DNA of 64,000 nucleotides from positions 24,606 to 88,605 of the forward strand of contig CAYOOB010000003.1 of NCBI GenBank assembly GCA_964405555.1. Reading direction: 5' to 3'. Both the position numbers and the translations under genes were made by a program. This DNA comes from an uncultured Lachnospiraceae bacterium. GTDB lineage: Bacteria > Bacillota > Clostridia > Christensenellales > UBA1242. The notes beneath the pieces were generated by a model. It was not told the DNA's origin, ran no database searches, and saw nothing but the letters and a program-made list of their open reading frames with translations. Below, in pieces: positions 40,145-58,369 of this stretch (the first letter of the stretch is position 1; each line of letters starts with the position of its first letter).

Positions 40145-40768
40145 TTAATCAATTTTTTTGCCGCTTGTTACGTAGTCTAAAAATTCGTTCATATTTAATC
40201 CAACTTTTGGTTTTTTATATTCATAAATTTCGGTGCTATATTCTTTTATTGGTTTTATACATGATTTAGCATATTCAATTTGTTTAAATTTTTGCCACTC
40301 TATCGCGTTATCAATAGATTTAAACTCATAAATTCCTTTGTTTTTATAGTCAGAATGTTCGAATAGTTTCCAATTTTCATTTTCTTTATAAATAAGATAT
40401 GTATGAGCAAAGCCTGAATTTGATATATCTTCTTGATATGCTGAAATCCAAAACGTTTTAACTGAAAAACCTTTTTTCTCAAACCAATATCTTTCAATTT
40501 CAACTTGGTCATAACAATGTGCAATTCCATCTTTTAATATTTGGATAACAGGGCGTACCCTCCAATTATTACAAGCATCTTGAAATTCTTGTTTTGAACT
40601 ATCATACAACTTGTTGCCATTTTTGTCAATTATGCCATAATGAATATTTTCATCTAAAAATTTCATTAAATCCTCTGGTGTTTTTACATTATCTATATTC
40701 ACTTCTCGGTAATCCTTTTCTTTAAATTTTATTATAAGATTAAAGATAATAATTGTCAAATGATGCAA
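40145..40768 (-). CDS. hypothetical protein, possibly transglutaminase-like/papain-like cysteine peptidase fold
   Basis: Candidate Cys (..DGIAHCYDQVE..), His (..FAHTYLIY..) and Asp (..FEHSD..) appear in the order expected for a transglutaminase-like core. The start is uncertain: 40768 lacks an RBS, while an internal ATG at MKFLDE has AGAGGA upstream. Confidence 0.3.
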   Translation of the reverse strand: MHHLTIIIFNLIIKFKEKDYREVNIDNVKTPEDLMKFLDENIHYGIIDKNGNKLYDSSKQEFQDACNNWRVRPVIQILKDGIAHCYDQVEIERYWFEKKGFSVKTFWISAYQEDISNSGFAHTYLIYKENENWKLFEHSDYKNKGIYEFKSIDNAIEWQKFKQIEYAKSCIKPIKEYSTEIYEYKKPKVGLNMNEFLDYVTSGKKID

Positions 40769-40916
40769 TGAAAAAATTTCGATTAAACATTTTTAATTTA
40801 GTAACATTAATATGGTCTTTTTTATAAAATGTGGTGGTGGGGAGGTCTTTTTGCTTGATTTTAGATTAAAAATGTGTTAAACTTAATGTGCACTAAACTT
40901 TTATATGTTTTTAATT

Positions 40917-40992
40917 GACCTCGTAGTAAAACTGGATATTACGGCCCCCTCCTAAGGGGTTGTTCTGGGTTCGAGTCCCGGCGGGGTCACCA
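40917..40992 (+). tRNA. tRNA-Arg (anticodon CCT)
   Basis: Hand-folded cloverleaf. Acceptor gacctcg/cggggtc, D-stem gtaa/ttac, anticodon stem gcccc/ggggt, loop ctCCTaa. T-arm ctggg-ttcgagt-cccgg, discriminator A, encoded CCA. 76 nt. Confidence 0.85.
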
Positions 40993-40993
40993 A
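40949..40993 (+). repeat. attL: 45-bp direct repeat (3' part of tRNA-Arg from the anticodon loop to CCA+1)
   Basis: ctcctaaggggttgttctgggttcgagtcccggcggggtcaccaa, identical to 58325-58369. Confidence 0.9.
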
Positions 40994-41257
40994 TAGCAAT
41001 ACTTAATGGCTTGATTTTAGTTCTCAACATACTTCTACAAACTCAACCAATTCTAATATCCATATTAGAATTATTAACTTTAATATTGGGGGTGATTAGT
41101 ATAGAGAATAATAAATTGAGAAGAAATATCATCAACACACGCGGAGTATTAAGAATTTATTATCAAGTCTGTTAGGCATTGTTGTGTTGTGTGTTGTGCG
41201 GTGCAAATCCGCAATACTCCAAATATTATCAATGGTAGGCACTTAACCTACCATTTT

Positions 41258-41740
41258 TTATATAAAAATTTTTTCCATAACATCTATTGAGTTGTCAATA
41301 TCTTGACAATAGTGTGTGTAAATTTTTAGTGTTATATCACTGTTGGCGTGTCCTGCAAAATGGGGTTGATATTTAAGCCATGGGTATTTCTTTTCTACTT
41401 CATTTCTTTCGGACTTATTCAGTGTTTCAGGCTTAATAATTTCTCCTATTTGCATATAGCCCCAGATTACATGTTTGCCATTCTTATGATATTTATCATT
41501 GATAATGTCCTCATACCAGCCATAAAACAAAAATAAGTCGCCAACTCCCACTCCATTCTTTTCTAAATGAGCTTGAAAGCCTTTGATTTGCCCTAAACTA
41601 CCTTTAAAGTTTTCGCAATTAAAATAATTTTCTAATTGCGGGTCAAGGTGACAGTGAGTTTGTGGGTCAATGTGACAGTGAGTTTTTAAAAATGGTTTGT
41701 TTTGTTCTTTGACTTCAATAACTCTATTCAAAAATGGCAA
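41258..41740 (-). pseudogene. chimeric ORF: unknown N-terminal domain fused to the last ~32 codons of a tyrosine integrase (integrase remnant next to attL)
   Basis: The C-terminus ..AGHANSDITLKIYTHYCQDIDNSIDVMEKIFI carries the G-H-x(n)-Y-x-H catalytic-Tyr motif. It parallels the tail of the intact Int (..AGHSKALKTSDFYSHFIKNSDIHASEILNKIFE). The upstream 128 aa are unrelated and contain a 24-bp tandem duplication (41641-41688). Confidence 0.6.
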
Positions 41741-42052
41741 GTCACAAAAGGAGTTGCGACCTTGCCGTCATTTATAATTTGTATGAGGTGTAATATGAAT
41801 AAAAATGATGTTGTATTGAGAATAAGTCTAACTCAAATCAAACTCACACATTTAGGGTAATTTTTAGTTAAGGGTAAAAATAGCTATGTGAAAAAAGAGC
41901 ATACAAAAAAACATACTCTTTGGATGTAAGTTATTTTAAATATTTGACATATCTCATTTAAACGAATTATACTATCAACAAATATTTGAAATAACCAAAT
42001 AATTCAACATCTTTTGAAAGTTGTTTGACACATTTTCGGGACGGCGTTATTT

Positions 42053-42068
42053 CTCCTAAGCGGTTGGT
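42053..42068 (+). repeat. degenerate att-like site (14/16 match to the att core)
   Basis: ctcctaagCggttgGt compared with att ctcctaagGggttgTt, in the same orientation as attL/attR. Confidence 0.4.
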
Positions 42069-42387
42069 ATATCCACTTAATCCAGCGAAACGTTGATCTT
42101 CTCCAGAAAGTTGCAAAAAAACACATCTATATGGAGAAAATACATTGTTAAACTGTTAAATTTTGATGCGGTGTTCAAAATATTGGGGCGAATTTCTGAA
42201 ACTTAGGTGAACAAAATGAGAAGTCTTATTCATAAGTATCTTATTATGGAATTTGTGTTTTTACAGTAAATGATTTTTTTTATAAGTGTGTTTGATAAAA
42301 TTTTACAAAAAATTCATTTATTATATAAATTTGGAAGAAAAGTATGCTATAATGGTTTTAGTTTAATAAAGCGATAAAGGAGATTTT

Positions 42388-45300
42388 ATGCAAACGCTTC
42401 TAAATGATTTTTGTTTTTCAGAAGAAAAAGCTGGGCTACTTCTAGTTGATTTACCAACAGGAACTGGGAAAACTCACAATGCGGTTGAGTTTATATATAG
42501 AAATTATGAAAAAGTAAAAAATAAAATAATCTTTATTACTAATTTAAAGAAAAATCTTCCTATTGCCAAACTAAAAGAATTTTTTGAAAAGGACAATAGG
42601 CTTGATGATTTTGAAAAAGATGTATTGTTTATAGATAATAATGTCGATACACTTATAGATCACTTCAATGAAGTTGATAGTGGCAATAAAATCCCTTATG
42701 CTAAGTTTAATAAAAATGGAACCATATTCAATGTAAAACGCTGTATTAAAATTATCAATACATTGAAAGAAAGTTTAAACAATAAGAAACCAACCGATAT
42801 GGATGCATTTGTCTCAAAAGAAAATGCTTATTTTATGATTAATCAAGCAAGAGAAGATTTACGAGACAAATATGAAAAAGAGCTAAGAGAAGTTATTGAA
42901 GAAGTTCTGCGATTTGATAATGAAGGCAAACGAAGGTCTAAAGCACAAAAATTGGATTTAATAAAAAATGATCCAGATTACCAATGGATTTCAGTTCTCT
43001 ATCCAGCAGTAAACACAGACGATAAAAAGATTATATTTATGAGTACTGATAAATTTTTAGTTAGAAACTCTACAATCGTTGAACCATCATATAATATCAT
43101 TGACAACAAATCACTTCTTAACGAATCTATTGTTTTCATTGATGAATTTGATGCCAGCAAAGACATTATATTAAAGAACATCATAAATGAAAGTTTGGAT
43201 ACTAAAGTTAATATCATTGAGCTCTTTCGAATAATATATTCAGGTTTGGAAAACACTTCTTTTTCTAAGTTATTAACAGATGTTTCTGCAACATTAAAAA
43301 ATAAAATTGAGAAAAAAGAAAGAAAATATTACACACCAGATGAAATTATTGGAGAGTTTAGAGCAAGTGCGAAAGAGATAGCAGAAAAATATAATCTCGT
43401 AAATTATCATAAACTTGAGGAATCTGAAAAAGAGAGAGCAAATTTTCTTTTTCAAGACTACAAATTTCACACAATTTTAGGAGATGCTAAAAATTGCGTT
43501 TATCTAGACAATGATGAAGACTTTAAAATTAACTGGATAAAAAGAGCTAATGATATGAACATTTTGGAGAACCAAAATTTGTTTATGCTTTTGCAAGATA
43601 TTAAGTCTTTTTTAGCATATTTTCAAAATGGCATAAAGTTTATTGCAGATAACTATCGTAATCTAAAAAAAGAGCGTAAACAAGAAACAAATAATTTTTC
43701 TTATGAAGCATCAATTAAAACTGCACTTGCGGAATTTGGGATTGAAGGTAAATATTTGAATTATTTGACAAGTCAAATTATGAATACAAGAAAGGCTCGC
43801 TCTTATAAAATTGTTGATCTGAAAAGTGAACTAGACTTCTCGGTTTATGAAAAAGGGTTTAGATTCTACAATTTTATTGACAGTGATACTTTTGATACAC
43901 AGTCAAAAATCAATTTACTATCATTCAATATGTCGCCAGAGAAAATACTAATTTATTTATGTAGCAATGCCAAAGTTGTTGGAATTTCAGCTAGCGGTAC
44001 TCTTGAAACAGTAACTGGAAACTATGACTTGGGATATATAAAAAGGAAACTCGGCAAACTCTTTTACGAGATTGATGAAAAAGAAAAAGGAAGAATCAAT
44101 AATTTTATTATAAAACAACTAGGTAATTATAAAAATGTACAAATAGATATAGATAAATGCCAAATTACTAATAAAAACTACACTGATGTAATGTTAAAAA
44201 TTTTTGACGAACATATAAGTGAAAATATCTTAAACAAAATTTCGGAATATTCTACTGATGATTTTGTTAAAGCGAGATACTGTAAAATTGCTTATGCTAT
44301 TAACGAATTCTTTAGTCGCGGCATTAAGTCTTTTCTCTTTCTAACAAATGTGTCTATGAATAATAGTCTTGAGTTTAACTATAATTGCATAAATTATATT
44401 TTTGATATTTTAAAACCAAATGATTTAAGCAATGTATATTGTTATGCGTTAGAGGGATCTCTCGAAAAATTTGAAAATTTAAAACAAGCAGTAAAAGATA
44501 AACTTAAAAGTGGGAAACGGGTCTTTGTTGTTTCGACTTATCAAACATTAGGTGCCGGTCAAAATTTGCAATACGAGTATGATGACAATTATGAAGGTTT
44601 GTTAGAAACAATAAATGATAATACATATAGCAAAAAGCAAAAAGATTTCGAAGCATTGTTTTTAGATAAGCCTACTAATATGTTTGTTAATATGAATTCC
44701 AATCCAAATGAGGAACAACTTATTAAGTTTATTTATCAAGTAAAATGCTTAGAGGAAACAGGTTATTTCGATGTTGAAGAAGCTACGAGAGAAATTAAAA
44801 AAGGAATTAAAATACTGTACCATGCCTCTTCACAAGGTATTTCAACTCCCAGGTCAAAACATATTTATATGCACACTGCAAAGATAATTTTACAAGCGAT
44901 TGGAAGAATATGCCGTACAAATAATAAGAATAAAAATATATTTATTTCATTTGATTGTCAAATGGAATATGATTTAGCATATTGCAAAAATGAGCTTTTA
45001 AAAAGACCGATGAATTATGAATTGAAAGAGCTTCTAAATAAATGTGAGAATGTAAAAGAGGAAGTTGATAATTCGATTTTCAAAATCAATAATTCAAAAA
45101 TAAAAAAGAATTCAGATAAGATAGATTCTTTGTTGCATTTCAAATCCAATACTGATATTTCAAAATGGGAAGAATTGAGAGATATTGTATTAAAATATCC
45201 TTATGATAATGAAGGAATTCACAATGAATATGACATCTATTGTGAACTTAAAGAACCGAGTAGTTACTATTATTATAATAAGGATCAGAATGGAGAATAT

Positions 45301-45849
45301 AATATAACTTACGAAAAAGTTAATGATTATTGTATATCTGCAGATTTTGCAAATCTAAAAACCTTAATGTCAATCAAAGAAATAAAAACCTATTTTGAGG
45401 ATATGGGATATGCTACAACTCTCGAAAAATCCTCTTATATTTTATTACCTAATGTTTTTACGCGAATTTATCTTGGAGCCTTAGGCGAATCTGTTGGTGA
45501 ATATTTAATTAATAGGTTCCTTAATCAATACGATTTAAAACTTGAAAGAATAAGAGATGTCAATAGATACGAAAAGTATGATTTTGTTTTTGATAATGAT
45601 AAATATGTGGATTTTAAATATTGGAATGGGAATTTTGATAAAGATAGACAGAGAGAAGTTGAAAGATGTATTAGAAAACTAAATGAATGTGATGGAAAAT
45701 ATGGTTTCATAATTAATATACTAAAACCTAAAAATTATGATCCAAAACAATATGTTAGTCCAGATGAAAGGCTTACAATAATTCCATATCTATATGATCC
45801 TGAAACAAAAAAATGGAACCTAAAAGATCTTGAAAAATTGTTACATTAA
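42388..45849 (+). CDS. SF2 helicase (DinG/XPD-like motif set) fused to a C-terminal PD-(D/E)xK-like nuclease domain
   Basis: Motif I DLPTGTGKT (aa ~21), motif II VFIDEFDAS (aa ~250), motif III GISASGTL (aa ~532). Motif V-like VSTYQTLGAGQNL and motif VI LQAIGRICRT (aa ~835). C-terminal GALGESVGEY..YEKYDFVF..YVDFKYW (E...D...DxK, aa ~1030-1080). AAAGGAG RBS. Confidence 0.7.
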   Translation: MQTLLNDFCFSEEKAGLLLVDLPTGTGKTHNAVEFIYRNYEKVKNKIIFITNLKKNLPIAKLKEFFEKDNRLDDFEKDVLFIDNNVDTLIDHFNEVDSGNKIPYAKFNKNGTIFNVKRCIKIINTLKESLNNKKPTDMDAFVSKENAYFMINQAREDLRDKYEKELREVIEEVLRFDNEGKRRSKAQKLDLIKNDPDYQWISVLYPAVNTDDKKIIFMSTDKFLVRNSTIVEPSYNIIDNKSLLNESIVFIDEFDASKDIILKNIINESLDTKVNIIELFRIIYSGLENTSFSKLLTDVSATLKNKIEKKERKYYTPDEIIGEFRASAKEIAEKYNLVNYHKLEESEKERANFLFQDYKFHTILGDAKNCVYLDNDEDFKINWIKRANDMNILENQNLFMLLQDIKSFLAYFQNGIKFIADNYRNLKKERKQETNNFSYEASIKTALAEFGIEGKYLNYLTSQIMNTRKARSYKIVDLKSELDFSVYEKGFRFYNFIDSDTFDTQSKINLLSFNMSPEKILIYLCSNAKVVGISASGTLETVTGNYDLGYIKRKLGKLFYEIDEKEKGRINNFIIKQLGNYKNVQIDIDKCQITNKNYTDVMLKIFDEHISENILNKISEYSTDDFVKARYCKIAYAINEFFSRGIKSFLFLTNVSMNNSLEFNYNCINYIFDILKPNDLSNVYCYALEGSLEKFENLKQAVKDKLKSGKRVFVVSTYQTLGAGQNLQYEYDDNYEGLLETINDNTYSKKQKDFEALFLDKPTNMFVNMNSNPNEEQLIKFIYQVKCLEETGYFDVEEATREIKKGIKILYHASSQGISTPRSKHIYMHTAKIILQAIGRICRTNNKNKNIFISFDCQMEYDLAYCKNELLKRPMNYELKELLNKCENVKEEVDNSIFKINNSKIKKNSDKIDSLLHFKSNTDISKWEELRDIVLKYPYDNEGIHNEYDIYCELKEPSSYYYYNKDQNGEYNITYEKVNDYCISADFANLKTLMSIKEIKTYFEDMGYATTLEKSSYILLPNVFTRIYLGALGESVGEYLINRFLNQYDLKLERIRDVNRYEKYDFVFDNDKYVDFKYWNGNFDKDRQREVERCIRKLNECDGKYGFIINILKPKNYDPKQYVSPDERLTIIPYLYDPETKKWNLKDLEKLLH

Positions 45850-45927
45850 AAATAACTTCTTAGAAAATTTTTATAAATTTTTTGAATTGATATGTTATAA
45901 TTCTAATATATTTAGTGAGGATGAAGC

Positions 45928-46902
45928 ATGCTAAAAACCTTTTTTGATTTCTGTTCTGGAATCGGTGCTGGCAGACTCGGACTTGAGTATTGCGGGTTAA
46001 CTTGTGTTGGTCATTCTGATACAAGCAGGCTGGCAGACACAACATACAGACTGTTACATAATGCATCAACAGACAAAAACTATGGAAATCTTAAGAAACT
46101 TGGAAAAGACAATTTGCCAGATTTTGATTTGCTAATAGCTGGCTTCCCTTGTCAAACTTTTTCAGTAATTGGGAAACAGGCAGGATTTAGTGATGACCGA
46201 GGTCAAATTATTTTTCATTTGTCAAGAATACTTAGAGAAATGCAGCCGAAGTGTTTTATTTTAGAAAATGTAAAAGGATTAGTATTGCATGATAACGGTA
46301 AAACCATCAAAAAAATTATTGAAGAATTGAATAGATCTGGATATTCTGTTGCCTACAAAGTGATTTCAAGTTTGAATTGTGGAGTTCCTCAAATGAGACA
46401 AAGAGTCTACTTTGTTGGCATTAGAAAGGATATTTGTAACAGTATAAATGACTTTGCTTGGCCGAAGGATATAGCAAAACCAGAATTAAACGATTTTTTA
46501 CCAGATCGTAAACAGATACAACCTGAGTTTTTGAACATTTTAATTCATTATTTAAAAAATTCAACAAATAACGGGAAATATACAGTACAAGATTTGCAAT
46601 GCATGAATGGAAAAATTCTAGATACAAGGATGAACGACCTAAGGATCTATGATGGAAAAGTTCCTACTCTCAGGGCTCAACGCGATGGCATATATTATGT
46701 TTTTAATAATACAATTTATCAACTAACAGGATGTGAAGCATTAATATTGCAGGGCTTTTCCCAAGAATATGTGGATAGAGTTAGGGATAAAGTTTCTGAT
46801 AGGCATTTGCTGATGCAAGCAGGGAATGCAATGACGGTAAATGTAATAACATTGATTGGACAATGTTTAATAAATTATCTAAAGAAAAAGGAGAACAAAT
46901 AA
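45928..46902 (+). CDS. DNA (cytosine-5)-methyltransferase, specificity unknown
   Basis: Motif I FFDFCSGIGAGRLG, motif IV GFPCQTFSVIGK, motif VI ENVKGL, motif VIII QMRQRVYFVG, motif X AGNAMTV. Confidence 0.9.
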   Translation: MLKTFFDFCSGIGAGRLGLEYCGLTCVGHSDTSRLADTTYRLLHNASTDKNYGNLKKLGKDNLPDFDLLIAGFPCQTFSVIGKQAGFSDDRGQIIFHLSRILREMQPKCFILENVKGLVLHDNGKTIKKIIEELNRSGYSVAYKVISSLNCGVPQMRQRVYFVGIRKDICNSINDFAWPKDIAKPELNDFLPDRKQIQPEFLNILIHYLKNSTNNGKYTVQDLQCMNGKILDTRMNDLRIYDGKVPTLRAQRDGIYYVFNNTIYQLTGCEALILQGFSQEYVDRVRDKVSDRHLLMQAGNAMTVNVITLIGQCLINYLKKKENK

Positions 46903-47693
46903 TGGCAATTTGGAAAGATTTTGAAATAGAGTGTACTAATTATTTAAATTCACAATTTGGTAAATTCGCAAAATTTACTCATCTTGGAGATAGTGATTCT
47001 ACAGTTGCAGACATAAAAGTAAACACTAAAAATAAAAAAGAGTTTTATATTGAATCGAAACATTCTCCAGCACAGTGTGGACAATTTGTTTTAATTCCAA
47101 ATATTAAAACTCATAAATTTGATTATAGTTCGTTAAATGTAAACAAAATAAATAAGTACTCTTCACAGATAATAGAACATATGAATAAAAATTTTAAAGA
47201 ATTTAAGGAAGCTGGTACAGCTGGCAAAGAAATTAAATTTGAAGGGTGTGAGAATGTCTTCTGTGGTTGGATTATTGATTATCATAAATCGAAAAATGTA
47301 AAATTTTTCATGACCAACAATAATATTATACTTCCGATAGAACAATTTGCAGAATTTTTCACAGTTACAGCTAAATATCGTATAAAACGTAGCGGTTCAT
47401 CTCCTGTTGGGAACTCAAATATTATAAATGTCAAAAATTATGTTAAAGAACATTTCAATATTCAACACATTGAAGTTGTAGGAGATAAAATATTTGTTAA
47501 ATCAAATGAAGAATTACATAATAAAAGATTTGTGATAAACGGATATGAGTATATGTTGTCGAAGCGTGATGGAGTTTACGAAATAAGAAAACTATCTAAT
47601 ACTTTTAACGCGAATGTTATATTTTCTATTGAATTAAAACCTGGAAAGCAGGGGCTAACAGTTTCGCAATTTATTGCTTTATTAAATTTATAA
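46902..47693 (+). CDS. putative type II restriction endonuclease (PD-(D/E)xK-like)
   Basis: Its ATG overlaps the MTase stop (TAATG), which implies translational coupling. The N-terminal FEIEC...VADIKV...EFYIESKH fits E...D...ExK. No family-level identification. Confidence 0.45.
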   Translation: MAIWKDFEIECTNYLNSQFGKFAKFTHLGDSDSTVADIKVNTKNKKEFYIESKHSPAQCGQFVLIPNIKTHKFDYSSLNVNKINKYSSQIIEHMNKNFKEFKEAGTAGKEIKFEGCENVFCGWIIDYHKSKNVKFFMTNNNIILPIEQFAEFFTVTAKYRIKRSGSSPVGNSNIINVKNYVKEHFNIQHIEVVGDKIFVKSNEELHNKRFVINGYEYMLSKRDGVYEIRKLSNTFNANVIFSIELKPGKQGLTVSQFIALLNL

Positions 47694-47981
47694 TATACTC
47701 TCCAAAAAGCTGATATACTTTTTAACCGCAAATTTATATGTGGATAGATAATATTTACCAATTGGTAGGTCTCCAACAAGGAGGTTTGCCATTTTTTCAT
47801 TTTGTCCAGAATTTTTGAATAGATCAAGGAGGCTTTCACATTTGTCTTTTCTATATTCTTCATCTATGTCACAATCTTTTATAGCATGTTCAATACGTTT
47901 TATCCTGGAAACATAATCGCTACAAAGTTTTTTGGGAGTGTTGTTTTGTTTTAAATAACGAACAAAGTCAAACTCAAGCAT
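47688..47981 (-). CDS. 97-aa protein translationally coupled to the M.HhaI-like gene; function unknown
   Basis: Its ATG overlaps the MTase TGA (ATGCTTGA). Its 3' end overlaps the convergent 46902-47693 gene by 6 nt. Confidence 0.5.
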   Translation of the reverse strand: MLEFDFVRYLKQNNTPKKLCSDYVSRIKRIEHAIKDCDIDEEYRKDKCESLLDLFKNSGQNEKMANLLVGDLPIGKYYLSTYKFAVKKYISFLESIL

Positions 47982-48960
47982 TGTCGTGACCTACTTTCTT
48001 GCCGATTTCGATTGCGATGTATTGCAAAACGTCAATAACAACAGAATTACCAAATTGTTTATATGCCTGATTTTTGTTTTTAGCCATTTTGTAGGTGTCT
48101 GGGAATCCCATTAATCTTGCACATTCACGAGGATGTAGCTTGCGTGGTCTACCATTAACCAAATAGCCTCCAGTTTTAGCGAAAACACCACCGCCATTAG
48201 CAGACAAAGTAATTGCTATGCCTTTTGTACTGTAGATTCGTTCACCTTGGCCACCTTTGTTTACAATTCCCAGTCTAATAGACTTGTTACTAAATTGGGA
48301 ATCATCTTTTACATTGTAATAAGTATCTGATCTTTCAACATACAAATTTGAAACTATTGACTCATCATTTAGCAAGAAATCTTGAACGTGTTTAGATAGC
48401 GGGAATGGTTTTGGGAAATTAAAACGACCACAATTTAATTCTTTCCTAAAGCAAACCATGTATATTCTCTCTCTTTTCTGTGGTATGCCATAGTCTGTTG
48501 CATTTAAGACTTTGTAATCAAAGGAGTAGCCTAATTCTTCCATGGTGGCTTTCACAACTTGCAATGTTTTACCGTTATCGTGAGCGGCAAAATTCTTAAC
48601 ATTTTCCATAAAGACAACTTTTGGTTTTTTACATTTTACTATTCTTGCAACATCAAAAAATAGAGTGCCTCGACTATCTTCAAAACCTCGTTGTTTTCCA
48701 CTTATAGAGAATGCCTGGCATGGAAACCCAGCACATAATATATCGTGATCGGGGATAGTATTTTCATCCACCTTGGTAATATCGCCCTCTGGTATATCTC
48801 CAAAGTTTTCATTGTAGACTGTCTGTGCAAATTTGTCCCATTCGTTGGAATACACACATTTTGCTCCTAAAGATTCCAGAGCTAACCTAAAACCACCTAA
48901 TCCTGCAAATAAATCAATAAATGTGCAATATGAAAGAGTCTTCTCTTTTATTTCGATCAT
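47974..48960 (-). CDS. DNA (cytosine-5)-methyltransferase, M.HhaI-like (predicted GCGC specificity)
   Basis: From MIEIKEKTLSYCTFIDLFAGLGGFRLALESLGAKCVYSNEWDK through GFPCQAFSISGKQRGFEDSRGTLFFD, ENVKNF, QKRERIY and QFGNSV, it tracks the M.HhaI sequence as I recall it. This includes the target-recognition loops RLGIVNKGGQGERIYSTKGIAITLSANGGGVFAKTGGYL. Start set at 48960 (GGAGGT RBS). Confidence 0.85.
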   Translation of the reverse strand: MIEIKEKTLSYCTFIDLFAGLGGFRLALESLGAKCVYSNEWDKFAQTVYNENFGDIPEGDITKVDENTIPDHDILCAGFPCQAFSISGKQRGFEDSRGTLFFDVARIVKCKKPKVVFMENVKNFAAHDNGKTLQVVKATMEELGYSFDYKVLNATDYGIPQKRERIYMVCFRKELNCGRFNFPKPFPLSKHVQDFLLNDESIVSNLYVERSDTYYNVKDDSQFSNKSIRLGIVNKGGQGERIYSTKGIAITLSANGGGVFAKTGGYLVNGRPRKLHPRECARLMGFPDTYKMAKNKNQAYKQFGNSVVIDVLQYIAIEIGKKVGHDNA

Positions 48961-49243
48961 TTTAACCTCCGAATCTGTCATATTATAGCACACTGCGCTA
49001 TAAATTCCAACTAATTTCAACCAACTAATTTCAACCAAAAACAGTAAAAACTTATAATTTAATCTGTTGGTTTTCAAATGCAATAGTGTATAATCATATT
49101 GTGAGGAAATATATGAACAATAATAATGAAATTGACATTTTGGACTAGGACATATACAGAGAAGTGCTCCTATATAGTAGAGGGTTGCTTCAAAAAAGAG
49201 CTCGTTTGAATTAATCCTCTAAATTATTTAGGAGGATTTTTTT

Positions 49244-49489: not shown

Positions 49490-49494
49490 TAAAG

Positions 49495-50160
49495 ATGCGA
49501 CAATTTATTTTTGAGTTTGAACAACCAGTTGTCATGCGACTAGGATTAAATCTTAAAGAACTGCTCTTTTTAGACTATATTTTACAGTTTGTAAATAGTG
49601 GCAATATGCGAAGTAAAAGAGTTGAAAGTAAATACTATTTTAAGTTAACATACAAAAAGATTATGGAAGACCTCCCTATTTTAAAAATTAAAGAAAGACA
49701 AATTCGCAACATGATAACAAAACTTGAGAATATGCATCTCGTTGAGTGTCTTTCAGAGTTAAGGAACGAAATGCACTTAAATGTGGATTTTGATGCTCTG
49801 TTCGGTAACAAATTGCCAGACGGTTTCGATCTTTCAGCAATTGGCTTCCACGATGAAGGTAATGGAGTGCTGACAATAGATTATTATGATATTAAAAAAA
49901 TAAAAATAATAACTGAATACACGCGCGTGAAAGATGTGGATAAAGATTTACTAACAAATCTATTCTATGAAAATATATCACACATAGTATCACCAACTAT
50001 CTTTCAAGGATTTATTAAAGATAAAGTATTTGTTGAAGAGATAAAAGATGAATATGTTTTGCTGTCTGTCACAAATGTTAAGTACGTAGGCAAAGAATAT
50101 GGCGAAAAAGTTAAATTTGCACTTGAGAAATCTTTAAAAAGCCTAGTATATAATGGCTAG
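49495..50160 (+). CDS. hypothetical 221-aa protein, possible winged-helix DNA-binding / replication-initiation-like function
   Basis: The N-terminal LKELLFLDYILQFV...YFKLTYKKIMEDLPILKIKERQIRNMITKLENMHLVE resembles wHTH modules of mobile-element Rep/DnaD-like proteins. This is a weak call. Confidence 0.3.
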   Translation: MRQFIFEFEQPVVMRLGLNLKELLFLDYILQFVNSGNMRSKRVESKYYFKLTYKKIMEDLPILKIKERQIRNMITKLENMHLVECLSELRNEMHLNVDFDALFGNKLPDGFDLSAIGFHDEGNGVLTIDYYDIKKIKIITEYTRVKDVDKDLLTNLFYENISHIVSPTIFQGFIKDKVFVEEIKDEYVLLSVTNVKYVGKEYGEKVKFALEKSLKSLVYNG

Positions 50161-50886: not shown

Positions 50887-52278
50887 ATGCCATGTATTAA
50901 AAAGAATGTGTTAGACACGGGTGCGATTTCATATCGCATCCAAGTCAAAGCGAAGAATGAAAGGACTGGAAAGTTTGAGGCGAAAGTGATGACTTGCAGG
51001 AAGCCAGCAGAACTCACAGAAAGGCAATATAAACGAGAACTGCAAAGAATAGCATTTGAATTCGAAGATAAGTTCCGCAAGTCTATGAATGGCTTGCTTG
51101 CCGTAGATAATGACATATTATTCATAGATCATGCCAACAAGTGGTTAGAAAAAGTTAAGAACACAAAATCGCTCAACTATTATGTTAAAGGTAAGGACAG
51201 TATCAAAAAGTTCTATGCTTACTTTGGGAATATTAAACTAAATCAAATCACACCAGTTATGGTCCAAGGGTTCTTGGATGAAATGAGTTTTAAAAAGGTT
51301 GAAAAGAAAAGTGCTGTGATGATAAAAGATATAACTCAATATCTTAAATCACACTGCATTAAACTTGTAGATGCAACAAACAAAACTGGCATATCAAGAT
51401 CAATATTCTTCTCTGCAACAAGTGGCCATGGAATAAGAGTTGAAAATGCTGAGAGAATATGCCAAGAGTTGGGGTTAAATTATGACGAGTATTTTAAGAC
51501 TGAAATTGTCTCTCATCCTTACGCAAAAGAAACAATACTAAAACTTAAACGAACATTAGCAACAATTCTGGCAGAGGCTAAGAGACAAAGATTGGTTGAG
51601 CATAACTTTGCGAGCAGAGATTATATCGCACCAATACAAGGCTACAAGAAAGAAATACAAATCTTAAACGACAAGGAGGCAAAGATACTGGCACAGTATT
51701 TGGACACTGAACCAAATCCTCGCTGGAAGATTGCTCTATTAACTATCTTGTTTATGGGGTTAAGGCGTGGCGAACTCGCTGGACTTGAATGGCAAGACAT
51801 TGATTTTGAAAACAAAACAATGACAATTCAAAGATCGGTGCAAGATATTGTTGGATTTGGACTTATAACAAAAGATCCAAAAACCGAAAACTCAAAACGA
51901 ACAATATCAATGCCAGATAAACTTATAACTTACTTGAAAGAATATCAAGCATGGTGGGACAATCAAAAACATTACTTGGGCGACCGCTGGAAAGATACTG
52001 ATAGATTGTTCTGCACAGAAGATGGTAAAACAATTTCACCAGGACTATTTAGAGTGTGGTTGCAAAAGACACTGATAAAAGCGGGACTACCAAAAGTATC
52101 TCTCCACTCACTTCGTCACACCAATATAACATTGCAACTAATCGCTGGCGTAGATATGAAAACGGTGTCTGCTCGTGCTGGACATAGCAAAGCGTTAAAG
52201 ACAAGCGATTTCTATAGCCACTTTATAAAGAATTCAGATATCCATGCAAGTGAAATATTAAATAAAATTTTTGAATGA
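50887..52278 (+). CDS. int: tyrosine-type site-specific integrase
   Basis: Catalytic residues in order: LRRGELAGLEWQDIDF (Arg), HSLRHTNITL (H-x-x-R), AGHSKALKTSDFYSH (His...Tyr). The N-terminal arm-binding-like domain is SYRIQVKAKNERTGKFEAKVMTCRKP. Confidence 0.92.
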   Translation: MPCIKKNVLDTGAISYRIQVKAKNERTGKFEAKVMTCRKPAELTERQYKRELQRIAFEFEDKFRKSMNGLLAVDNDILFIDHANKWLEKVKNTKSLNYYVKGKDSIKKFYAYFGNIKLNQITPVMVQGFLDEMSFKKVEKKSAVMIKDITQYLKSHCIKLVDATNKTGISRSIFFSATSGHGIRVENAERICQELGLNYDEYFKTEIVSHPYAKETILKLKRTLATILAEAKRQRLVEHNFASRDYIAPIQGYKKEIQILNDKEAKILAQYLDTEPNPRWKIALLTILFMGLRRGELAGLEWQDIDFENKTMTIQRSVQDIVGFGLITKDPKTENSKRTISMPDKLITYLKEYQAWWDNQKHYLGDRWKDTDRLFCTEDGKTISPGLFRVWLQKTLIKAGLPKVSLHSLRHTNITLQLIAGVDMKTVSARAGHSKALKTSDFYSHFIKNSDIHASEILNKIFE

Positions 52279-52442
52279 TTATTAAATAATAATTAAAAAA
52301 CTTTGAGCGTTGTTAAGATTTACAGTAAAATAATTAGAATTGAGATTCGTAGATCTCAGACAACTTGAAATTTAGTGAAAATTCTTGTATAATAATACAA
52401 ATAGTGTTATTAGGTACAAACATTGTTGTAATGGAGGAATTA

Positions 52443-55400
52443 ATGAACGAATCAAATGAAAGGGTACAGTTTATTTCTGATTATATTATCTCTTATGAAA
52501 ACAAAATTAAAATATTAAATAAAGAAGGGTTGTTTGATGCGGCAAAATTGTTTGAACTTTTTGCAATCAAGGTTTGTTCTTTATACTTTAAACAAGAATT
52601 TTTTAACCTAAATGTTAATACGTTTCAATATCCTTGTGTTGATTTAATATCTGAAGATAAGAATTTATTTGTTCAAGTTAGTACAGTTCAAGATGTACCA
52701 ACGAAAATTAAAAATACTTTAGAATCTATCAGAGATTCTAAACATGAAAACATAAAGGATATAAAGAACGTAATTTTCTTTTTGCTTAGCAATGATAGTA
52801 TCAACAATGTAGTGGATTATAAAGGTGAGAACAAAATTGGTAATTTTGAATTTATTAAAAAAGAAAATTTAATAACAACACGAGATGTCATTTATAAGGC
52901 AGAAGTGGATTTAGATTTTCAGTTAGGACTATATGATATTCTAAAAAAGGAAGAAGAAAGTGTTAAAACTAATTTAAAAAGTTTTAAAGAGGCATTAAGA
53001 GATAGTGCTACTTGTATTTCTTCTATTGAAGATAAGATCAACGGAGAATATAGTATTGATTTGTCTGAATATATAAATAATATTAGAGAACACAACCATA
53101 AAAATATTTTAATTGAAGGGAAAGCAGGCAGCGGGAAAACGGTTCTTTGTAAAAAGTTAGTTGAACAAGAAGAGATAGTGTTATTTGCAAGAGCTGAGAG
53201 ATTTTGTGAAGAAACTAATATAAACAGTATTTGGCATTTTAATTTAGATGAAACGCTAGAATATTTAAATAATAAAAAGATAGTTATATTTATAGATGCA
53301 TTAGAGTTTATTGCCGACAATAGAACTAAACTTGACATGTTAATGATGCTATATGAACGAACAAAAGATTATAGAAACGTATTTATAATTGTGTCTTGTA
53401 GAACTAGTGATAAATCAGCATTTATAAAATTGCAAAATGAATACTCTATTGTTAATTATGAGGTTGCAAACCTGAATCCAGAAATGCTAAAACCATTGGC
53501 GGATAAGTATTCAATCATAAGAGATATGCAGAATAACGATTTATACTCTGAGCTTTTAGGATCTCCATTTTACTTAAATATTATTATTTCAAATATGTCA
53601 ACACTGCAAAATATTTCAGACGAAAATCAACTTAGAGAATATATTTGGCAAAAGGTTATTAGTTTAAATGATAGTAATATTAGAGATGCTGTTAATAAAA
53701 TCGTTTTTGAAAGAGCTAAGAATTTTCTTGTTGGAGTACCTTGTGATGAAATAGATCCCGAGATTCTAAAAAAATTAGAATCAAATAATATAGTTACGTG
53801 TAATGATAAACGTGTCAGATTAAAGTATGATATTTTTGAAGATATATGTTTTGAGCAATATATCGACAAAGTTTTTTATGAATGCAAAGGTGATTATAAA
53901 ATATTTTTTGATAAATTAGAAAATATGGGTAGGTGTATATATAGACGATACCAAATTTGGATTGAAAATAAATTATTAGCAAAAAATAATAGAGACAAAT
54001 TTATTTATAGTTTATTATTTTCAAAAACTTTGCCTGATGAATGGCACAAACAAACTGAGATAGGGTTAGTTAAGTCAAGACATAGTGAAAGTTTCTTTAT
54101 TGAGAACGCGAATACTTTAATTAAAGAAAATCTTTTATTAGAATTTGTAAATATTACAAATTTGTATGGCTTTGAACTCGATGTACCTTTTTCTAGGGAC
54201 ATTTATTTAACCCTAAAAAATGCGGGAATTGGTAGAAAATGTTTAATTAATATTATAGCCGAAAACAATTTATATAAAACATGGACAGAGCCAGTTCAAC
54301 CATTAGAGAAGCTTGTAATTGACTATTCCCAAAATAAAGATTATGATGAAAGTACTGCAATAAATACAACAAAAATACTTGCTTATCTAATTGACGAAAT
54401 ACTGTTAAACAAGCCAAAAGAAAAATATTGGAGAGTTTTTGATTGTATAAAAGATAAACTAAGGGCTGTATACAAACTCGGAAACTATTGTAAAGATTGG
54501 ATTAATAATTTCTTCAACAAAGTAATAGATATGTTTAAGGGGCAAGATGACGATAAAGTAAGATTTGCTGAGGATGTAATAGAGAATATAATTAGTTATG
54601 AAAATTGTATATTGTCAAAATACATTCCTAATGAAGTATGTAACATTTTTGAATTATATTATACATTTAAGCGTAAACCTTCTAAAAATAACTTTTATAT
54701 CCCAGAAAACGAAAATAAAATATACTCATTGTATGGTTTGAATAAAAATGCAGAAAGTTATGACCATGAATCATTTAGGAAAGCCCCTCAAAATAGTAAC
54801 TTCGTATATATGTATTTTTGTTTTAACGGACTTCATGGACTAAAATGGATGGTTCAGTTTATTAATAAACTTGTGTTAAACTTTAAAAATAATAATAAAG
54901 GGTTACCAGAATTTACTGTTTACTTTGCAGAAACAAATAAAGAAAAGAAATATTTTGGATATTCGGATATGTGGCTTACAATGGTTCAAGAACATCAAGT
55001 TCCTACGCTTATTGCCGATATTGTGTATTCATTTAAAGAACTAATTAGGTTTTATATGAAAAATAATGACTTGTCAGTCACTCAAAAACTTAAAATTGCA
55101 AACAATATAAAAAATTACATTTATGAAAATTCGAACAATATTATATTGTTATCAATTATTTCAGAAGTTGGTATGGAATTTGAGCAGTTGTTACCAGGAT
55201 ATGCAATAGATTTAATTTCAAATATGGATATTGTTATCAATGATTTAACAAGATATTCTTTACAAATGCCTAATCCTTTAAGGAATAAGTTGGAAAATGA
55301 AATTATGATATCCGCGGGATTACCTTTTGGATTGAAACACAGGTACAAAGCGGTCAATAACAATATAAGTTTGCGAGAGTATGCCCGCAACTGCCAAATT

Positions 55401-57388: not shown

Positions 57389-57754
57389 ATGAAAGCAAAG
57401 TTCCTGTGCGATATTTCTAATGCTCGATTGCTTAGGAATAAATTAGATAAAGACGAAGGTTTAGAATGTGAATATGTGATTGAACGAGTTGTGTATTTAT
57501 CCAAGCGAGACTTTATTCCTTTTCGTGAGCATCTTATGGAAGAAACACCGTTTGTGTCTTGTCACAAGGAAGATATGTTTATCGATAAGCAAGGCATTTG
57601 GCATGTTTTGATGTTCTGCTGTTTGCAGTCGGATATAATCTTGCTTGTAAACAGTGACAGCAAAGATTATGCCAAATATTGTAGCATTATTTCAAATGGA
57701 GGTGAGGAAGTTGAACCACGTTTTACAACTAGTCAGAGATATACTAGAAAATGA
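57389..57754 (+). CDS. hypothetical 121-aa protein (island right end)
   Basis: AAAGGAG RBS and coding-like composition. Confidence 0.45.
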   Translation: MKAKFLCDISNARLLRNKLDKDEGLECEYVIERVVYLSKRDFIPFREHLMEETPFVSCHKEDMFIDKQGIWHVLMFCCLQSDIILLVNSDSKDYAKYCSIISNGGEEVEPRFTTSQRYTRK

Positions 57755-58324: not shown

Positions 58325-58369
58325 CTCCTAAGGGGTTGTTCTGGGTTCGAGTCCCGGCGGGGTCACCAA
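58325..58369 (+). repeat. attR: displaced 3' part of tRNA-Arg(CCT), 45/45 identical to 40949-40993
   Basis: The preceding sequence (..tatattttattg) cannot form the tRNA 5' half. Confidence 0.9.

What the first reader, a model, noticed from the sequence alone, without database searches (positions are those of the whole stretch)
42388..45849. 1153-aa DinG/XPD-like helicase fused to a PD-(D/E)xK-like nuclease, placed directly upstream of C5-MTase/endonuclease genes
Seen directly: PTGTGKT, DEFD, SASGTL, TLGAGQNL and QAIGRICRT in the order and spacing of SF2 helicases. About 280 aa separate motifs II and III, as in DinG/XPD, but there is no Cys cluster. A C-terminal E...D-x11-DFK arrangement is typical of PD-(D/E)xK nucleases. 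Helicase N-terminal plus nuclease C-terminal is the domain order of type III Res subunits. The adjacent methyltransferases, however, are C5-cytosine enzymes rather than the N6-adenine Mod of type III systems. No HsdS/HsdM, PglZ, DUF1998 or PLD partner is present. It could be a stand-alone helicase-nuclease defence gene. It could also be the motor or restriction arm of an unusual C5-methylation-linked system.
Basis: partly seen in the sequence, partly recalled or inferred. Interest (0 to 1): 0.75.

Follow-up and report, generated by a model that had tools for sequence, protein, structure and literature searches.

The report
DdmD helicase-nuclease without its Argonaute partner
The gene encodes an intact relative of DdmD, the DNA-shredding motor of the DdmDE anti-plasmid system, from a small branch that has lost its Argonaute targeting partner and often sits beside restriction-modification genes, so the motor may work without a guide.

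Summary
The 1153-aa ORF and all five helicase motifs are real. It is a full-length DdmD homologue, not a type III Res or a repair DinG. The PADLOC DdmD profile gives E=4e-33. PDB DdmD chains give E=3e-45. An AlphaFold model (pLDDT 86) superposes on Lactobacillus and Vibrio DdmD at TM 0.71-0.79. All five nuclease catalytic residues are conserved.

Canonical DdmD needs the Argonaute DdmE, encoded directly downstream. Here DdmE is absent. The gene belongs to a monophyletic clade (36/36 loci, bootstrap 50/50; about 8 of more than 400 family clusters, mostly gut Clostridia and Erysipelotrichales). No member has DdmE and no neighbour family recurs in more than 4 of 28 contexts. Purifying selection is strong (dN/dS about 0.07).

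The link to C5 methylation specifically is not supported. Relatives sit beside type I, II and III restriction-modification systems, or none. Restriction-modification genes are, however, enriched next to this clade: 12/20 contexts against 6/67 for DdmDE loci, always co-oriented.

The gene lies in a 17.4-kb island at tRNA-Arg with perfect 45-bp repeats. The island also carries a type II restriction system, an integrase and an Avs4-like NTPase.

Verdict: a new, DdmE-less variant of a known effector. Its mode of target selection is unknown.

The parts
40917..40992 (+). tRNA-Arg (anticodon CCT). Its 3' 45 bp (40949-40993) form the left copy of the island's direct repeat (attL).
   Evidence: ARAGORN; repeat family D1; sequence read.
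41258..41740 (-). 160-aa ORF with a partial Nmad3 domain and a tyrosine-recombinase-like C-terminal tail (…GHANSDITLKIYTHY…). It is probably a decayed remnant at the island's left edge.
   Evidence: Pfam Nmad3 E=7e-23, covering only profile positions 63-169 of 247. Translation. This stretch is absent from the 96%-identical locus L002, whose homology to the window starts at 42053.
42388..45849 (+). Gene for a DdmD-family helicase-nuclease of the DdmE-less clade, 1153 aa. By homology to L. casei DdmD the domains are HD1, Insertion (about 91-214), Arch (about 280-490), HD2 (about 560-895) and nuclease (about 896-1153).
   Evidence: PADLOC DdmD E=4.4e-33; PDB DdmD E=3e-45; AF2 model, TM 0.71-0.79 to DdmD structures; dN/dS 0.07. 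Domain limits are taken from 10.1101/2024.10.09.617351.
42454..42474 (+). Walker A / motif I, PTGTGKT (residues 23-29, K28).
   Evidence: invariant in 54 homologues.
43141..43152 (+). Motif II, DEFD (residues 252-255).
   Evidence: D252, E253 and D255 are invariant.
45487..45618 (+). PD-(D/E)xK nuclease catalytic segment: E1034, E1062, D1065, D1075, K1077.
   Evidence: Aligned to V. cholerae DdmD E1059/E1082/D1085/D1100/K1102; invariant.
45928..46902 (+). C5-cytosine DNA methyltransferase M1 (324 aa). It starts 79 bp after the DdmD-like stop codon.
   Evidence: PADLOC MTase_II E=5e-92; TIGR00675 dcm E=5e-72.
46863..47693 (+). Type II restriction endonuclease (276 aa).
   Evidence: PADLOC REase_II PDLC03486 E=1.2e-56.
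47763..47791 (+). Terminator-like hairpin after the REase. None is predicted between the DdmD-like gene and M1, so the three genes may form one transcript (inference).
   Evidence: pattern scan only.
47974..49083 (-). Second C5-cytosine DNA methyltransferase M2 (369 aa).
   Evidence: PADLOC MTase_II E=3e-120; TIGR00675 E=3e-96.
49495..50160 (+). 221-aa island ORF of unknown function. With the integrase it forms a conserved backbone of related islands.
   Evidence: Window 49495-52276 is 85-86% identical at nucleotide level to L004 and 77% to L082. No family hit.
50887..52278 (+). Tyrosine recombinase / integrase (463 aa).
   Evidence: Pfam Phage_integrase E=1e-18 plus Phage_int_SAM_3; NCBIfam Xer-like hits.
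52365..57188 (+). 1607-aa Avs4-like STAND NTPase with an N-terminal SMEK domain. This is a third defence module on the island.
   Evidence: PADLOC Avs4 E=1e-30 over residues 207-1361; Pfam SMEK_N E=1e-20.
57389..57754 (+). 121-aa ORF of unknown function. In related islands it lies directly upstream of the DdmD-like gene and is transcribed divergently.
   Evidence: Window 57314-57931 matches L002 8808-9342, L003 9474-9920, L004 9091-9642 and L082 6627-6966, all inverted and abutting the DdmD-like gene.
58325..58369 (+). Right copy of the perfect 45-bp direct repeat (attR). The island spans about 40994-58369 (17.4 kb).
   Evidence: 100% identity, spacing 17376 bp; sequence read.

Best explanation
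The gene encodes an intact, selectively maintained member of the DdmD family. The protein has a DinG-like SF2 helicase core (HD1/HD2) with Insertion and Arch domains, and a C-terminal PD-(D/E)xK nuclease. It belongs to a small monophyletic clade that has lost DdmE, the Argonaute that normally finds the target and loads DdmD.

By homology (inferred), the protein is an ATP-driven 5'->3' single-strand DNA translocase that nicks and degrades the strand it tracks. With no guide-binding partner and no other conserved neighbour, it most likely acts as a self-sufficient, guide-independent effector. It would load directly on foreign DNA that exposes single-stranded tails, forks or processed breaks. Purified Vibrio and Lactobacillus DdmD dimers open on such substrates once the ssDNA overhang reaches about 15-20 nt.

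The gene is cargo of a 17.4-kb tRNA-Arg integrative island, together with a type II C5 restriction-modification system and an Avs4-like NTPase. It is probably co-transcribed with the first methylase and the restriction enzyme. Restriction breaks in unmethylated DNA are a plausible, but not obligatory, source of entry sites.

Shown: family membership, fold, catalytic residues, local absence of DdmE, clade structure, island borders, selection. Inferred: activity, polarity, trigger, defence role, operon structure.
For: Family: PADLOC DdmD E=4.4e-33 over residues 214-1082. phmmer against the PDB gives L. casei DdmD E=3e-45 and V. cholerae DdmD E=5e-38. The AF2 model has pLDDT 85.7 and pTM 0.85. 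Its 20 best PDB matches are all DdmD at TM 0.71-0.79 over the full length; DinG, XPD and CasDinG follow at TMq 0.25-0.33.

Catalytic residues: K28, D252/E253, Q836/R840/R843 and E1034/E1062/D1065/D1075/K1077 are invariant.

DdmE: in the other branch of the family a 600-745-aa gene lies directly downstream in every locus with room except L030. It matches PDB DdmE. An HMM of it finds nothing in six-frame translations of the window or of the orphan-clade loci then held. A second search, of called ORFs, found none in the three orphan loci added later.

Clade: an NJ tree splits 36 loci without DdmE from 59 loci (54 with DdmE), with bootstrap 50/50.

No alternative partner: no neighbour family occurs in more than 4 of 28 contexts.

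Functional gene: dN/dS is 0.074 and 0.065 against L002 and L001.

Island: tRNA-Arg plus a perfect 45-bp repeat 17.4 kb away. It holds an integrase, a type II RM and an Avs4-like protein.

Biochemistry of homologues: DdmD alone nicks plasmids and degrades ssDNA, is a 5'-3' helicase, and its dimer opens on ssDNA or forked DNA (10.1101/2024.07.20.604412; 10.1101/2024.10.09.617351).
Against: In V. cholerae, DdmD without DdmE shows only residual nuclease activity on plasmids in vitro (10.1101/2024.07.20.604412). A guide-less DdmD is therefore not known to be an effective defence.

Only 6-10 kb on each side of each gene was examined, so a partner encoded elsewhere is not excluded.

The orphan clade differs from DdmE-linked DdmD only by small indels, so no obvious structural novelty explains autonomy.

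No experiment or expression data are available. The operon call rests on a pattern scan.

The strong co-orientation and enrichment of RM neighbours could mean the protein is not self-sufficient.
Confidence: 0.55

Rival explanations
1. RM-licensed DdmD. In this clade a restriction-modification system has functionally replaced DdmE as the targeting module. The RM system discriminates self from non-self by methylation and cuts invading DNA. The DdmD-like motor loads at those breaks and degrades the DNA processively. The helicase-nuclease and an RM system therefore form one functional unit.
For: An RM methylase or Res gene lies within 2 kb in 12 of 20 de-duplicated orphan contexts, against 6 of 67 DdmDE contexts (Fisher p=7e-6). 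With full flanks the counts are 10/17 against 6/49 (p=3.5e-4).

All 12 are on the same strand. Gaps are often short: 35-143 bp in the window, L013, L018, L011, L016, L007 and L017.

The RM types differ: type II C5, type II N6, D12, type I and type III.

The RM is exchanged while DdmD stays. L013 and L180 share 79% DdmD identity but only 28% HsdM identity. The window and L004 share 66% DdmD identity but only 29% C5 MTase identity.

The closest homologue, L001, keeps the same RM module although its upstream context differs.

No terminator is predicted between the DdmD-like gene and M1.
Against: About 40% of orphan contexts have no RM gene within 2 kb (L006, L086, L090, L093, L096, L099, L179).

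RM systems are the commonest content of defence islands, and orphan genes sit in such islands more often than DdmDE loci do. The enrichment may therefore reflect island residence only.

The contexts are not phylogenetically independent.

The MTase seeds came from orphan loci, which biases detection. A Pfam check of the controls partly offsets this.

Type II ends carry only short overhangs, whereas known DdmD dimers need about 15-20 nt of ssDNA.
Confidence: 0.3
2. Canonical mechanism with a partner in trans. The protein still works with a DdmE-like or other Argonaute (or another DNA sensor) encoded elsewhere in the genome.
For: Overall architecture is nearly identical to DdmE-linked DdmD: median length 1153 against 1158 aa, with only small indels. 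Only 6-10 kb of flank per locus could be searched.
Against: In the sister branch DdmE is immediately downstream in every locus with room except L030, so the pair is normally tightly linked.

In the orphan clade, 0 of 39 loci have DdmE, over sequence divergence down to 36%.

Four short HD2 loops present in the DdmE-linked branch are missing. L. casei DdmE-contact residues D584/R585 fall in a 7-aa gap of this protein (residues).

The gene travels on an island without such a partner.
Confidence: 0.1
3. One reading: a Res-like motor or restriction arm of an unusual C5-methylation-linked system (type III-like, DISARM-like or Druantia-like).
For: It is directly upstream of, and co-oriented with, a C5 MTase. 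Three different C5-MTase RM cassettes follow homologues at least 66% identical (window/L001/L002, L082, L083-85).
Against: The C5 cluster already has its own REase.

ResIII matches only around Walker A and scores below threshold. There are no DrmA/B/C, DruE, PglZ or Mod hits.

C5 MTases occur near only 3 of about 28 distinct orphan contexts. Others have N6 MTases, type I or III systems, or none.
Confidence: 0.03
4. A housekeeping DinG-like repair helicase, or a decaying leftover of a DdmDE operon with no current function.
For: The helicase core resembles DinG and XPD. DdmE has evidently been lost.
Against: The gene lies inside a tRNA-integrated island bounded by perfect repeats and has different flanks in close relatives. 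The ORF is full length with all catalytic residues and dN/dS of about 0.07. The clade persists across 36-96% identity in many taxa.
Confidence: 0.02

Closest known systems
DdmD of the DdmDE anti-plasmid system (Vibrio cholerae VC1771; Lactobacillus casei LcDdmD; PDB 8u0u, 9ezx, 9ix4, 9khv)
   Same: The same full-length architecture and fold: HD1, Insertion, Arch, HD2 and PD-(D/E)xK nuclease (TM 0.71-0.79). The same helicase motifs and the same five nuclease residues. Similar length. It is likewise carried on a genomic island next to other defence systems.
   Different: About 20% sequence identity to the solved proteins and at most 35% to any DdmE-linked homologue sampled. There is no ddmE gene downstream; a type II RM operon sits there instead. 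It belongs to a separate, fully supported clade. Four short HD2 loops are missing, and it has clade-specific conserved residues: G180, R183, G451-x-E453-G454, K1113-P1114 and Y1134-x-Y1136-D1137.
Cas3 of type I CRISPR-Cas (helicase-nuclease recruited by a targeting complex)
   Same: The logic is the same: an SF2 helicase fused to a nuclease that degrades DNA processively after loading on a displaced strand. The DdmDE papers draw this analogy themselves.
   Different: Different helicase lineage and nuclease (an HD domain in Cas3). The only PADLOC Cas3 match is E=0.0011 at the P-loop. No Cascade or CRISPR array is nearby.
DinG / XPD / CasDinG (Csf4) 5'-3' helicases
   Same: The helicase core with an Arch-type insertion between motifs II and III. 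These are the next-best structural matches.
   Different: No FeS cluster cysteines. An extra C-terminal nuclease. TMq is only 0.25-0.33. The gene is not in the core genome.
Type III restriction Res subunit
   Same: Helicase at the N-terminus and PD-(D/E)xK-type nuclease at the C-terminus. Genuine Res genes sit immediately upstream of three homologues (L007, L017, L018).
   Different: ResIII scores below threshold and only at Walker A. There is no RE_endonuc domain and no Mod partner. Genuine Res proteins form a separate family (PDLC03647 E=2e-289 for the L007 neighbour, and no match for this protein).
Defence genes embedded in or next to RM cassettes (PrrC/RloC in type Ic loci; TgvAB inside the V. 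cholerae VPI-2 type I RM)
   Same: A non-RM defence gene repeatedly found co-oriented with RM cassettes of varying specificity. The TgvAB example is described in PMC12409362. PrrC and RloC are cited from my own knowledge.
   Different: Those proteins are anticodon nucleases or GmrSD-like enzymes and are tied to type I systems. Here the gene is a DdmD-type motor found beside type I, II and III systems, and functional coupling has not been shown.

Membership tests
DdmD protein family | Significant match to a DdmD sequence profile or to solved DdmD sequences over most of the length. | tested here: met
   PADLOC DdmD E=4.4e-33, residues 214-1082 against profile positions 238-1107 of 1190. PDB LcDdmD E=3e-45 (residues 15-849 and 968-1119) and VcDdmD E=5e-38.
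DdmD protein family | DdmD fold: DinG-like HD1/HD2 with Insertion and Arch domains plus a C-terminal PD-(D/E)xK domain. | tested here: met
   AF2 model with pLDDT 85.7. Foldseek top 20 hits are all DdmD, TM 0.71-0.79, about 1240 aligned columns.
DdmD protein family | Conserved ATPase motifs and the nuclease pentad (Vc E1059, E1082, D1085, D1100, K1102). | tested here: met
   K28, D252/E253 and Q836/R840/R843, plus E1034, E1062, D1065, D1075 and K1077, are invariant in 54 sequences.
DdmDE defence system | A ddmE gene (catalytically inactive long-C Argonaute) adjacent to ddmD, normally directly downstream. | tested here: not met
   A DdmE HMM built from 53 neighbours of the sister clade (verified against PDB DdmE) finds nothing in six frames of the 64-kb window or of the orphan-clade loci then held. 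A search of called ORFs found none in the three orphan loci added later. The downstream genes are a C5 MTase and a REase.
DdmDE defence system | DdmD held as an autoinhibited dimer that is opened by DdmE and target DNA. | not testable with these tools
   Only monomer prediction is available. The Insertion and Arch (dimerisation) domains are present in the model.
DdmDE defence system | Elimination of plasmids in vivo. | not testable with these tools
   This needs an experiment.
Type III RM Res subunit | ResIII helicase domain above threshold, RE_endonuc (PF19778) C-terminal domain, and an adjacent Mod N6 methylase. | tested here: not met
   ResIII scores 18.9 bits against the 22.5 cutoff, at residues 16-55 only. 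There is no RE_endonuc hit. No Mod is present, and the neighbours are C5 MTases. No REase_III profile hit.
DinG/XPD repair helicases | A 4-Cys FeS cluster between motifs Ia and II, and core-genome conservation. | tested here: not met
   Only C9 and C119 precede motif II. The gene lies in a tRNA-integrated island with variable flanks in relatives.
DISARM / Druantia / BREX (methylase-linked helicase systems) | DrmA+DrmB(DUF1998)+DrmC(PLD), or DruE, or PglZ/BrxC partners. | tested here: not met
   PADLOC gives no such hit for the protein or for the other flanking genes scanned. The two C5 MTases do match the methylase models DrmMII and DruM, but as lower-ranking hits than Type II MTase models.
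Genomic island integrated at a tRNA gene | A tRNA at one border, a direct repeat of the tRNA 3' end at the other, and an integrase inside. | tested here: met
   tRNA-Arg 40917-40992. Perfect 45-bp repeat at 40949-40993 and 58325-58369. Tyrosine integrase at 50887-52278.

The most novel reading that the evidence does not exclude
In this clade the Argonaute DdmE has been replaced by restriction-modification as the targeting device. Any RM system (type I, II or III) marks self by methylation and breaks foreign DNA. The DdmD-like motor is licensed by those breaks to destroy the invader. The result would be a modular 'RM + DdmD' defence unit that standard annotation tools probably miss, because ddmE is absent and the PADLOC and DefenseFinder DdmDE definitions, as I recall them, need both genes.
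Probability: 0.3. Interest if true: 0.75.

Novelty: new variant of a known kind. Interest (0 to 1): 0.55.

Why it matters
DdmD is currently understood only as the effector half of an Argonaute-guided system. Structural work shows it as an autoinhibited dimer that DdmE must open.

A conserved, selected clade that has lived without DdmE across wide divergence leaves two possibilities. The motor may be triggered directly by DNA structure. Alternatively, a different targeting module, plausibly restriction-modification, has taken DdmE's place. Either answer would show how defence effectors are re-wired between sensors.

If PADLOC- and DefenseFinder-type rules need both genes (from my own knowledge of the tools; DefenseFinder was not run here), these genes are probably invisible to current defence annotation. 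Gut Clostridia and Erysipelotrichales may therefore carry an uncounted anti-plasmid or anti-phage function, with consequences for gene transfer in the gut microbiome and for transforming these organisms.

If instead the RM adjacency is only island co-location, the finding is a modest extension of a known family.

Tried and rejected
1. A degraded ddmE in the 2.4-kb gap upstream (40000-42388). Rejected: it holds tRNA-Arg, an Nmad3 fragment and a 207-aa ORF, and the DdmE HMM finds nothing.

2. The 651-aa gene upstream of the closest homologue (L001) as a DdmE candidate. Rejected: it is a DRT3b reverse transcriptase.

3. A specific C5-methylase link. Rejected: C5 MTases occur near only 3 distinct orphan contexts.

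4. Another conserved partner. Rejected: clustering of 251 neighbours from 28 contexts gives no family in more than 4 contexts. The 121-aa divergent upstream gene is limited to one subclade and in the window lies 11.5 kb away.

5. A large structural change explaining the loss of DdmE. Only small indels were found.

6. Carriage on phages or plasmids. No phage hits, and 4 plasmid hits of which only one covers most of the protein (Nostoc, 98% coverage, 32.7% identity).

7. Literature on DdmE-less DdmD. Searches found none. One search was uninformative. The original 2022 Nature paper and Bravo et al. 2024 are not held, so prior mention cannot be excluded.

8. Co-divergence of DdmD with neighbouring RM genes. 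Inconclusive. Type III Res proteins are about 57% identical where the DdmDs are 37-47% identical, but elsewhere the RM genes are clearly swapped.

9. The first control Pfam run failed on the size limit and was repeated on 132 proteins.

Full report
**1. Observation**

The ORF 42388..45849 (+) is real: ATG start, 1153 codons. PTGTGKT is at residue 23, DEFD at 252, SASGTL at 534, TLGAGQNL at 720, QAIGRICRT at 836, and DFK at 1075. Motifs II and III are 279 residues apart. Only two cysteines (C9, C119) precede motif II, so there is no FeS cluster. The nuclease motif spacing is D1065-x9-D1075-F-K1077 rather than x11. The neighbours are as described: a C5 methylase (45928-46902), a type II restriction enzyme (46863-47693) and a second C5 methylase on the other strand (47974-49083).

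**2. What the protein is**

Pfam sees almost nothing: ResIII at 18.9 bits, below threshold, over residues 16-55 only. NCBIfam has no match. The PADLOC DdmD profile matches at E=4.4e-33 over residues 214-1082. phmmer against PDB sequences finds only DdmD. L. casei DdmD gives E=3e-45 in two stretches covering residues 15-849 and 968-1119. V. cholerae DdmD gives E=5e-38.

An AlphaFold2 model built on 54 homologues has mean pLDDT 85.7 and pTM 0.85. Its twenty best PDB matches are all DdmD chains, aligned over about 1240 columns with TM 0.71-0.79. DinG, XPD/TFIIH and CasDinG follow at TMq 0.25-0.33.

The five nuclease residues shown by mutagenesis to be essential in V. cholerae DdmD are E1059, E1082, D1085, D1100 and K1102 (10.1101/2024.05.10.593530). 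They align to E1034, E1062, D1065, D1075 and K1077 here, and these are invariant across homologues, as are K28, D252/E253 and Q836/R840/R843.

The family is DdmD, not type III Res.

**3. The missing partner**

DdmD is known only as half of DdmDE. DdmE is a catalytically dead long-C Argonaute. It uses DNA guides to find plasmid DNA, and it recruits and opens the autoinhibited DdmD dimer.

I fetched 80 genomic loci and 80 metagenomic loci encoding homologues. I added further loci by exact-protein look-ups.

In homologues at most 35% identical to the window protein, a 600-745-aa gene lies directly downstream on the same strand in 52 of 54 genome loci where it was found. It matches PDB DdmE at E=1.5e-12. 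Among metagenome loci, every one with at least 2 kb of downstream sequence has it.

An HMM of this DdmE group finds nothing in six-frame translations of the whole 64-kb window or of the closer homologue loci then held. A second search, of called ORFs, found none in the three orphan loci added later.

A neighbour-joining tree of 95 full-length proteins, midpoint-rooted, splits into two groups. One has 36 sequences, none with DdmE, and includes the window. The other has 59 sequences, 54 of them with DdmE. Of the five exceptions, three are contig ends, one is an ORF-calling artefact, and one (L030) really lacks DdmE. The split has 50/50 bootstrap support.

In a search of 1.84 billion cluster representatives the family has 1021 members at E<=1e-3 and 432 at E<=1e-30. 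Only about eight of these score like the orphan clade. The window gene thus belongs to a small, distinct, DdmE-less branch. Record titles place it mostly in uncultured gut and rumen Clostridia and Erysipelotrichales.

**4. Is it functional?**

The ORF is full length with all catalytic residues. dN/dS is 0.074 against L002 (96% amino-acid identity) and 0.065 against L001 (92% amino-acid identity, 82% nucleotide identity). The clade spans 36-96% identity with conserved length. This is not a decaying remnant.

**5. Is there a replacement partner?**

I clustered 251 neighbours (within 5 kb) from 28 distinct orphan contexts. No family is present in more than four contexts.

A 121-aa gene transcribed divergently upstream is confined to one subclade. 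In the window it lies 11.5 kb away, at 57389-57754.

Compared with the DdmE-linked branch, the orphan clade lacks four short loops, all in HD2 (near window residues 622, 678, 822 and 891). It has a 5-residue insertion at 175-178 and several clade-specific conserved residues. L. casei DdmE-contact residues D584/R585 fall in a 7-residue gap of this protein, and R632 aligns next to one of the missing loops. This fits loss of the DdmE interface, but the evidence is weak.

**6. The methylase question**

The adjacent genes form a complete type II RM system with its own endonuclease. Relatives do not share it.

- L082 (73% identity): a controller protein, a C5 MTase and a HinfI/TdeIII-like REase.
- L083-85/L004 (66%): a Bsp6I-like REase and two C5 MTases.
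- L003 (74%): a type II N6 MTase.
- L009 (55%): a Dam-like MTase and a REase.
- L012/L016 (40%): a D12 MTase.
- L013/L014: HsdM.
- L011: another type II MTase.
- L180: DUF4357-HsdR-HsdM.
- L007, L017, L018: a type III Res immediately upstream.
- L086, L090, L093, L096, L179, L181: no RM nearby, but Fic, YobI-type ATPase, AAA_21 or SF1 helicase genes.
- L088: Gabija upstream.
- L001: DRT3 upstream.

A dependence on C5 methylation is therefore not supported.

RM genes of any kind are nonetheless enriched. I used jackhmmer seeds for the main MTase classes and for type III Res. An RM gene lies within 2 kb in 12 of 20 de-duplicated orphan contexts. The figure for DdmDE contexts is 6 of 67 (Fisher p=7e-6). 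With full flanks on both sides the counts are 10/17 and 6/49 (p=3.5e-4). All 12 are co-oriented with the DdmD-like gene. Gaps are 35-143 bp in seven loci.

A Pfam scan of the nearest neighbours agrees. The orphan set contains DNA_methylase, MethyltransfD12, N6_Mtase/Eco57I and RE_endonuc. In the control set no DNA-methylase family appears in two or more members, and housekeeping families (MFS, PUCC, aldo-keto reductase) dominate.

The RM partner is exchanged while the DdmD-like gene stays. L013 and L180 share 79% DdmD identity but only 28% HsdM identity. The window and L004 share 66% DdmD identity but only 29% C5 MTase identity.

Four caveats apply. Contexts are not phylogenetically independent. 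The seeds came from orphan loci. About 40% of contexts lack an RM neighbour. RM systems are the commonest cargo of defence islands, where orphan genes evidently reside more often than DdmDE loci do. The enrichment may therefore reflect island residence rather than function.

**7. Genomic setting**

A tRNA-Arg(CCT) gene lies at 40917-40992. Its last 45 bp are repeated perfectly at 58325-58369. These repeats delimit a 17.4-kb island that contains:

- a decayed Nmad3/recombinase fragment;
- the DdmD-like gene;
- the RM system;
- conserved 81-aa and 221-aa ORFs;
- a tyrosine integrase (50887-52278);
- a 1607-aa SMEK-domain, Avs4-like STAND NTPase (PADLOC Avs4 E=1e-30);
- the 121-aa ORF.

Related islands (L004, L082) share the backbone DdmD-like gene, variable RM slot, 221-aa ORF, integrase. 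The backbone is 77-86% identical at nucleotide level, while the DdmD-like genes are 70-74% identical.

GC content of the DdmD-like gene is 27-28%, against 31-32% in the flanking core genes. No homologue is found in phage records. Only four weak hits occur in plasmids.

No terminator-like hairpin is predicted between the DdmD-like stop codon (45849) and the first methylase (45928). One follows the REase at 47763-47791. The three genes may therefore be one transcript, which is an inference from a pattern scan.

**8. Mechanism**

Established for homologues (from the literature): DdmD is a 5'->3' ssDNA translocase with a Mn2+/Mg2+-dependent ssDNA nuclease. Alone it nicks plasmids weakly. Its dimer dissociates on forked DNA or on ssDNA overhangs of about 15-20 nt.

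My best account (confidence 0.55) is that the orphan protein keeps this chemistry and acts without a guide. It would load directly on foreign DNA that exposes ssDNA tails, forks or processed breaks. Neighbouring RM systems would be synergistic but not required.

The main rival (0.3) is that RM has functionally replaced DdmE as the discriminating module, with restriction breaks licensing the motor.

A trans-encoded Argonaute (0.1) cannot be excluded with 6-10 kb flanks. It is unlikely given the otherwise strict DdmD-DdmE linkage and the island's self-contained nature.

The Res-like C5-linked reading (0.03) and the repair or pseudogene reading (0.02) are contradicted by the tests above.

**9. 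Novelty and score**

The protein family and its chemistry are known. What I could not find described in the searchable literature is a conserved DdmE-less clade and its association with RM cassettes. Key subscription papers were not available to check. I class it as a new variant of a known kind, with interest 0.55. The value would rise to about 0.75 if RM licensing were shown.

Noticed in passing
window 40949-40993 and 58325-58369: A perfect 45-bp direct repeat of the 3' end of tRNA-Arg(CCT) delimits a 17.4-kb integrative island. The perfect repeats suggest recent integration or retained mobility.
   Followed up: yes
window 52365-57188 (+): A 1607-aa protein with an N-terminal SMEK domain and an Avs4-like STAND NTPase body (PADLOC Avs4 E=1e-30). 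It is a possible Avs variant with a SMEK effector, inserted between the integrase and the island's right end.
   Followed up: partly
window 41258-41740 (-), incl. 41636-41683: This ORF fuses a partial Nmad3 domain to a tyrosine-recombinase-like tail. It contains a 24-bp tandem duplication (TTGCGGGTCAAGGTGACAGTGAGT x2, 92% identical) encoding THCHIDPQ/THCHLDPQ. It looks like debris from an earlier insertion at the same tRNA.
   Followed up: partly
window 57314-57931 vs L002 8808-9342, L003 9474-9920, L004 9091-9642, L082 6627-6966: The 121-aa ORF segment lies directly upstream of, and divergent from, the DdmD-like gene in related islands. [quoted passage not shown] This implies a rearrangement or a different integration junction.
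   Followed up: partly
window 45928-49083 vs L004 13560-17424, L082 10691-13220, L003 13661-16737: Between the conserved DdmD-like gene and the conserved 221-aa ORF plus integrase backbone, related islands carry different RM cassettes. This looks like a variable RM slot.
   Followed up: partly
window 47688-47981 (-): A 97-aa ORF lies between the REase and the second C5 methylase. It is conserved in L001 and L002 (cluster c16) and has no family hit. It may be a controller or accessory protein of the RM system.
   Followed up: no
L001 2831-9907: The 92%-identical homologue is preceded by a different defence stretch: DUF4417, ApeA_NTD1, and a 651-aa DRT3b-like reverse transcriptase (PDB 9z6y E=4e-32). 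A HaeIII-type RM and a serine recombinase lie downstream.
   Followed up: partly
L030 (Fournierella MAG), 2262-5615: This is the only member of the DdmE-linked branch with about 10 kb of downstream sequence and no DdmE. It may be an independent second loss of DdmE.
   Followed up: no
L093 4975-5961, L180 5070-5960, L096 9897-10943: Fic-domain genes lie immediately next to the DdmD-like gene in three distant orphan contexts.
   Followed up: no
window 28096-31922 vs L082 3-3416: The core genes feoB, der, plsY and yjbR of the window are 67-74% identical to those flanking the L082 island. In that related genome the island sits next to these genes instead of at tRNA-Arg. The region may be a hotspot for defence islands.
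   Followed up: no
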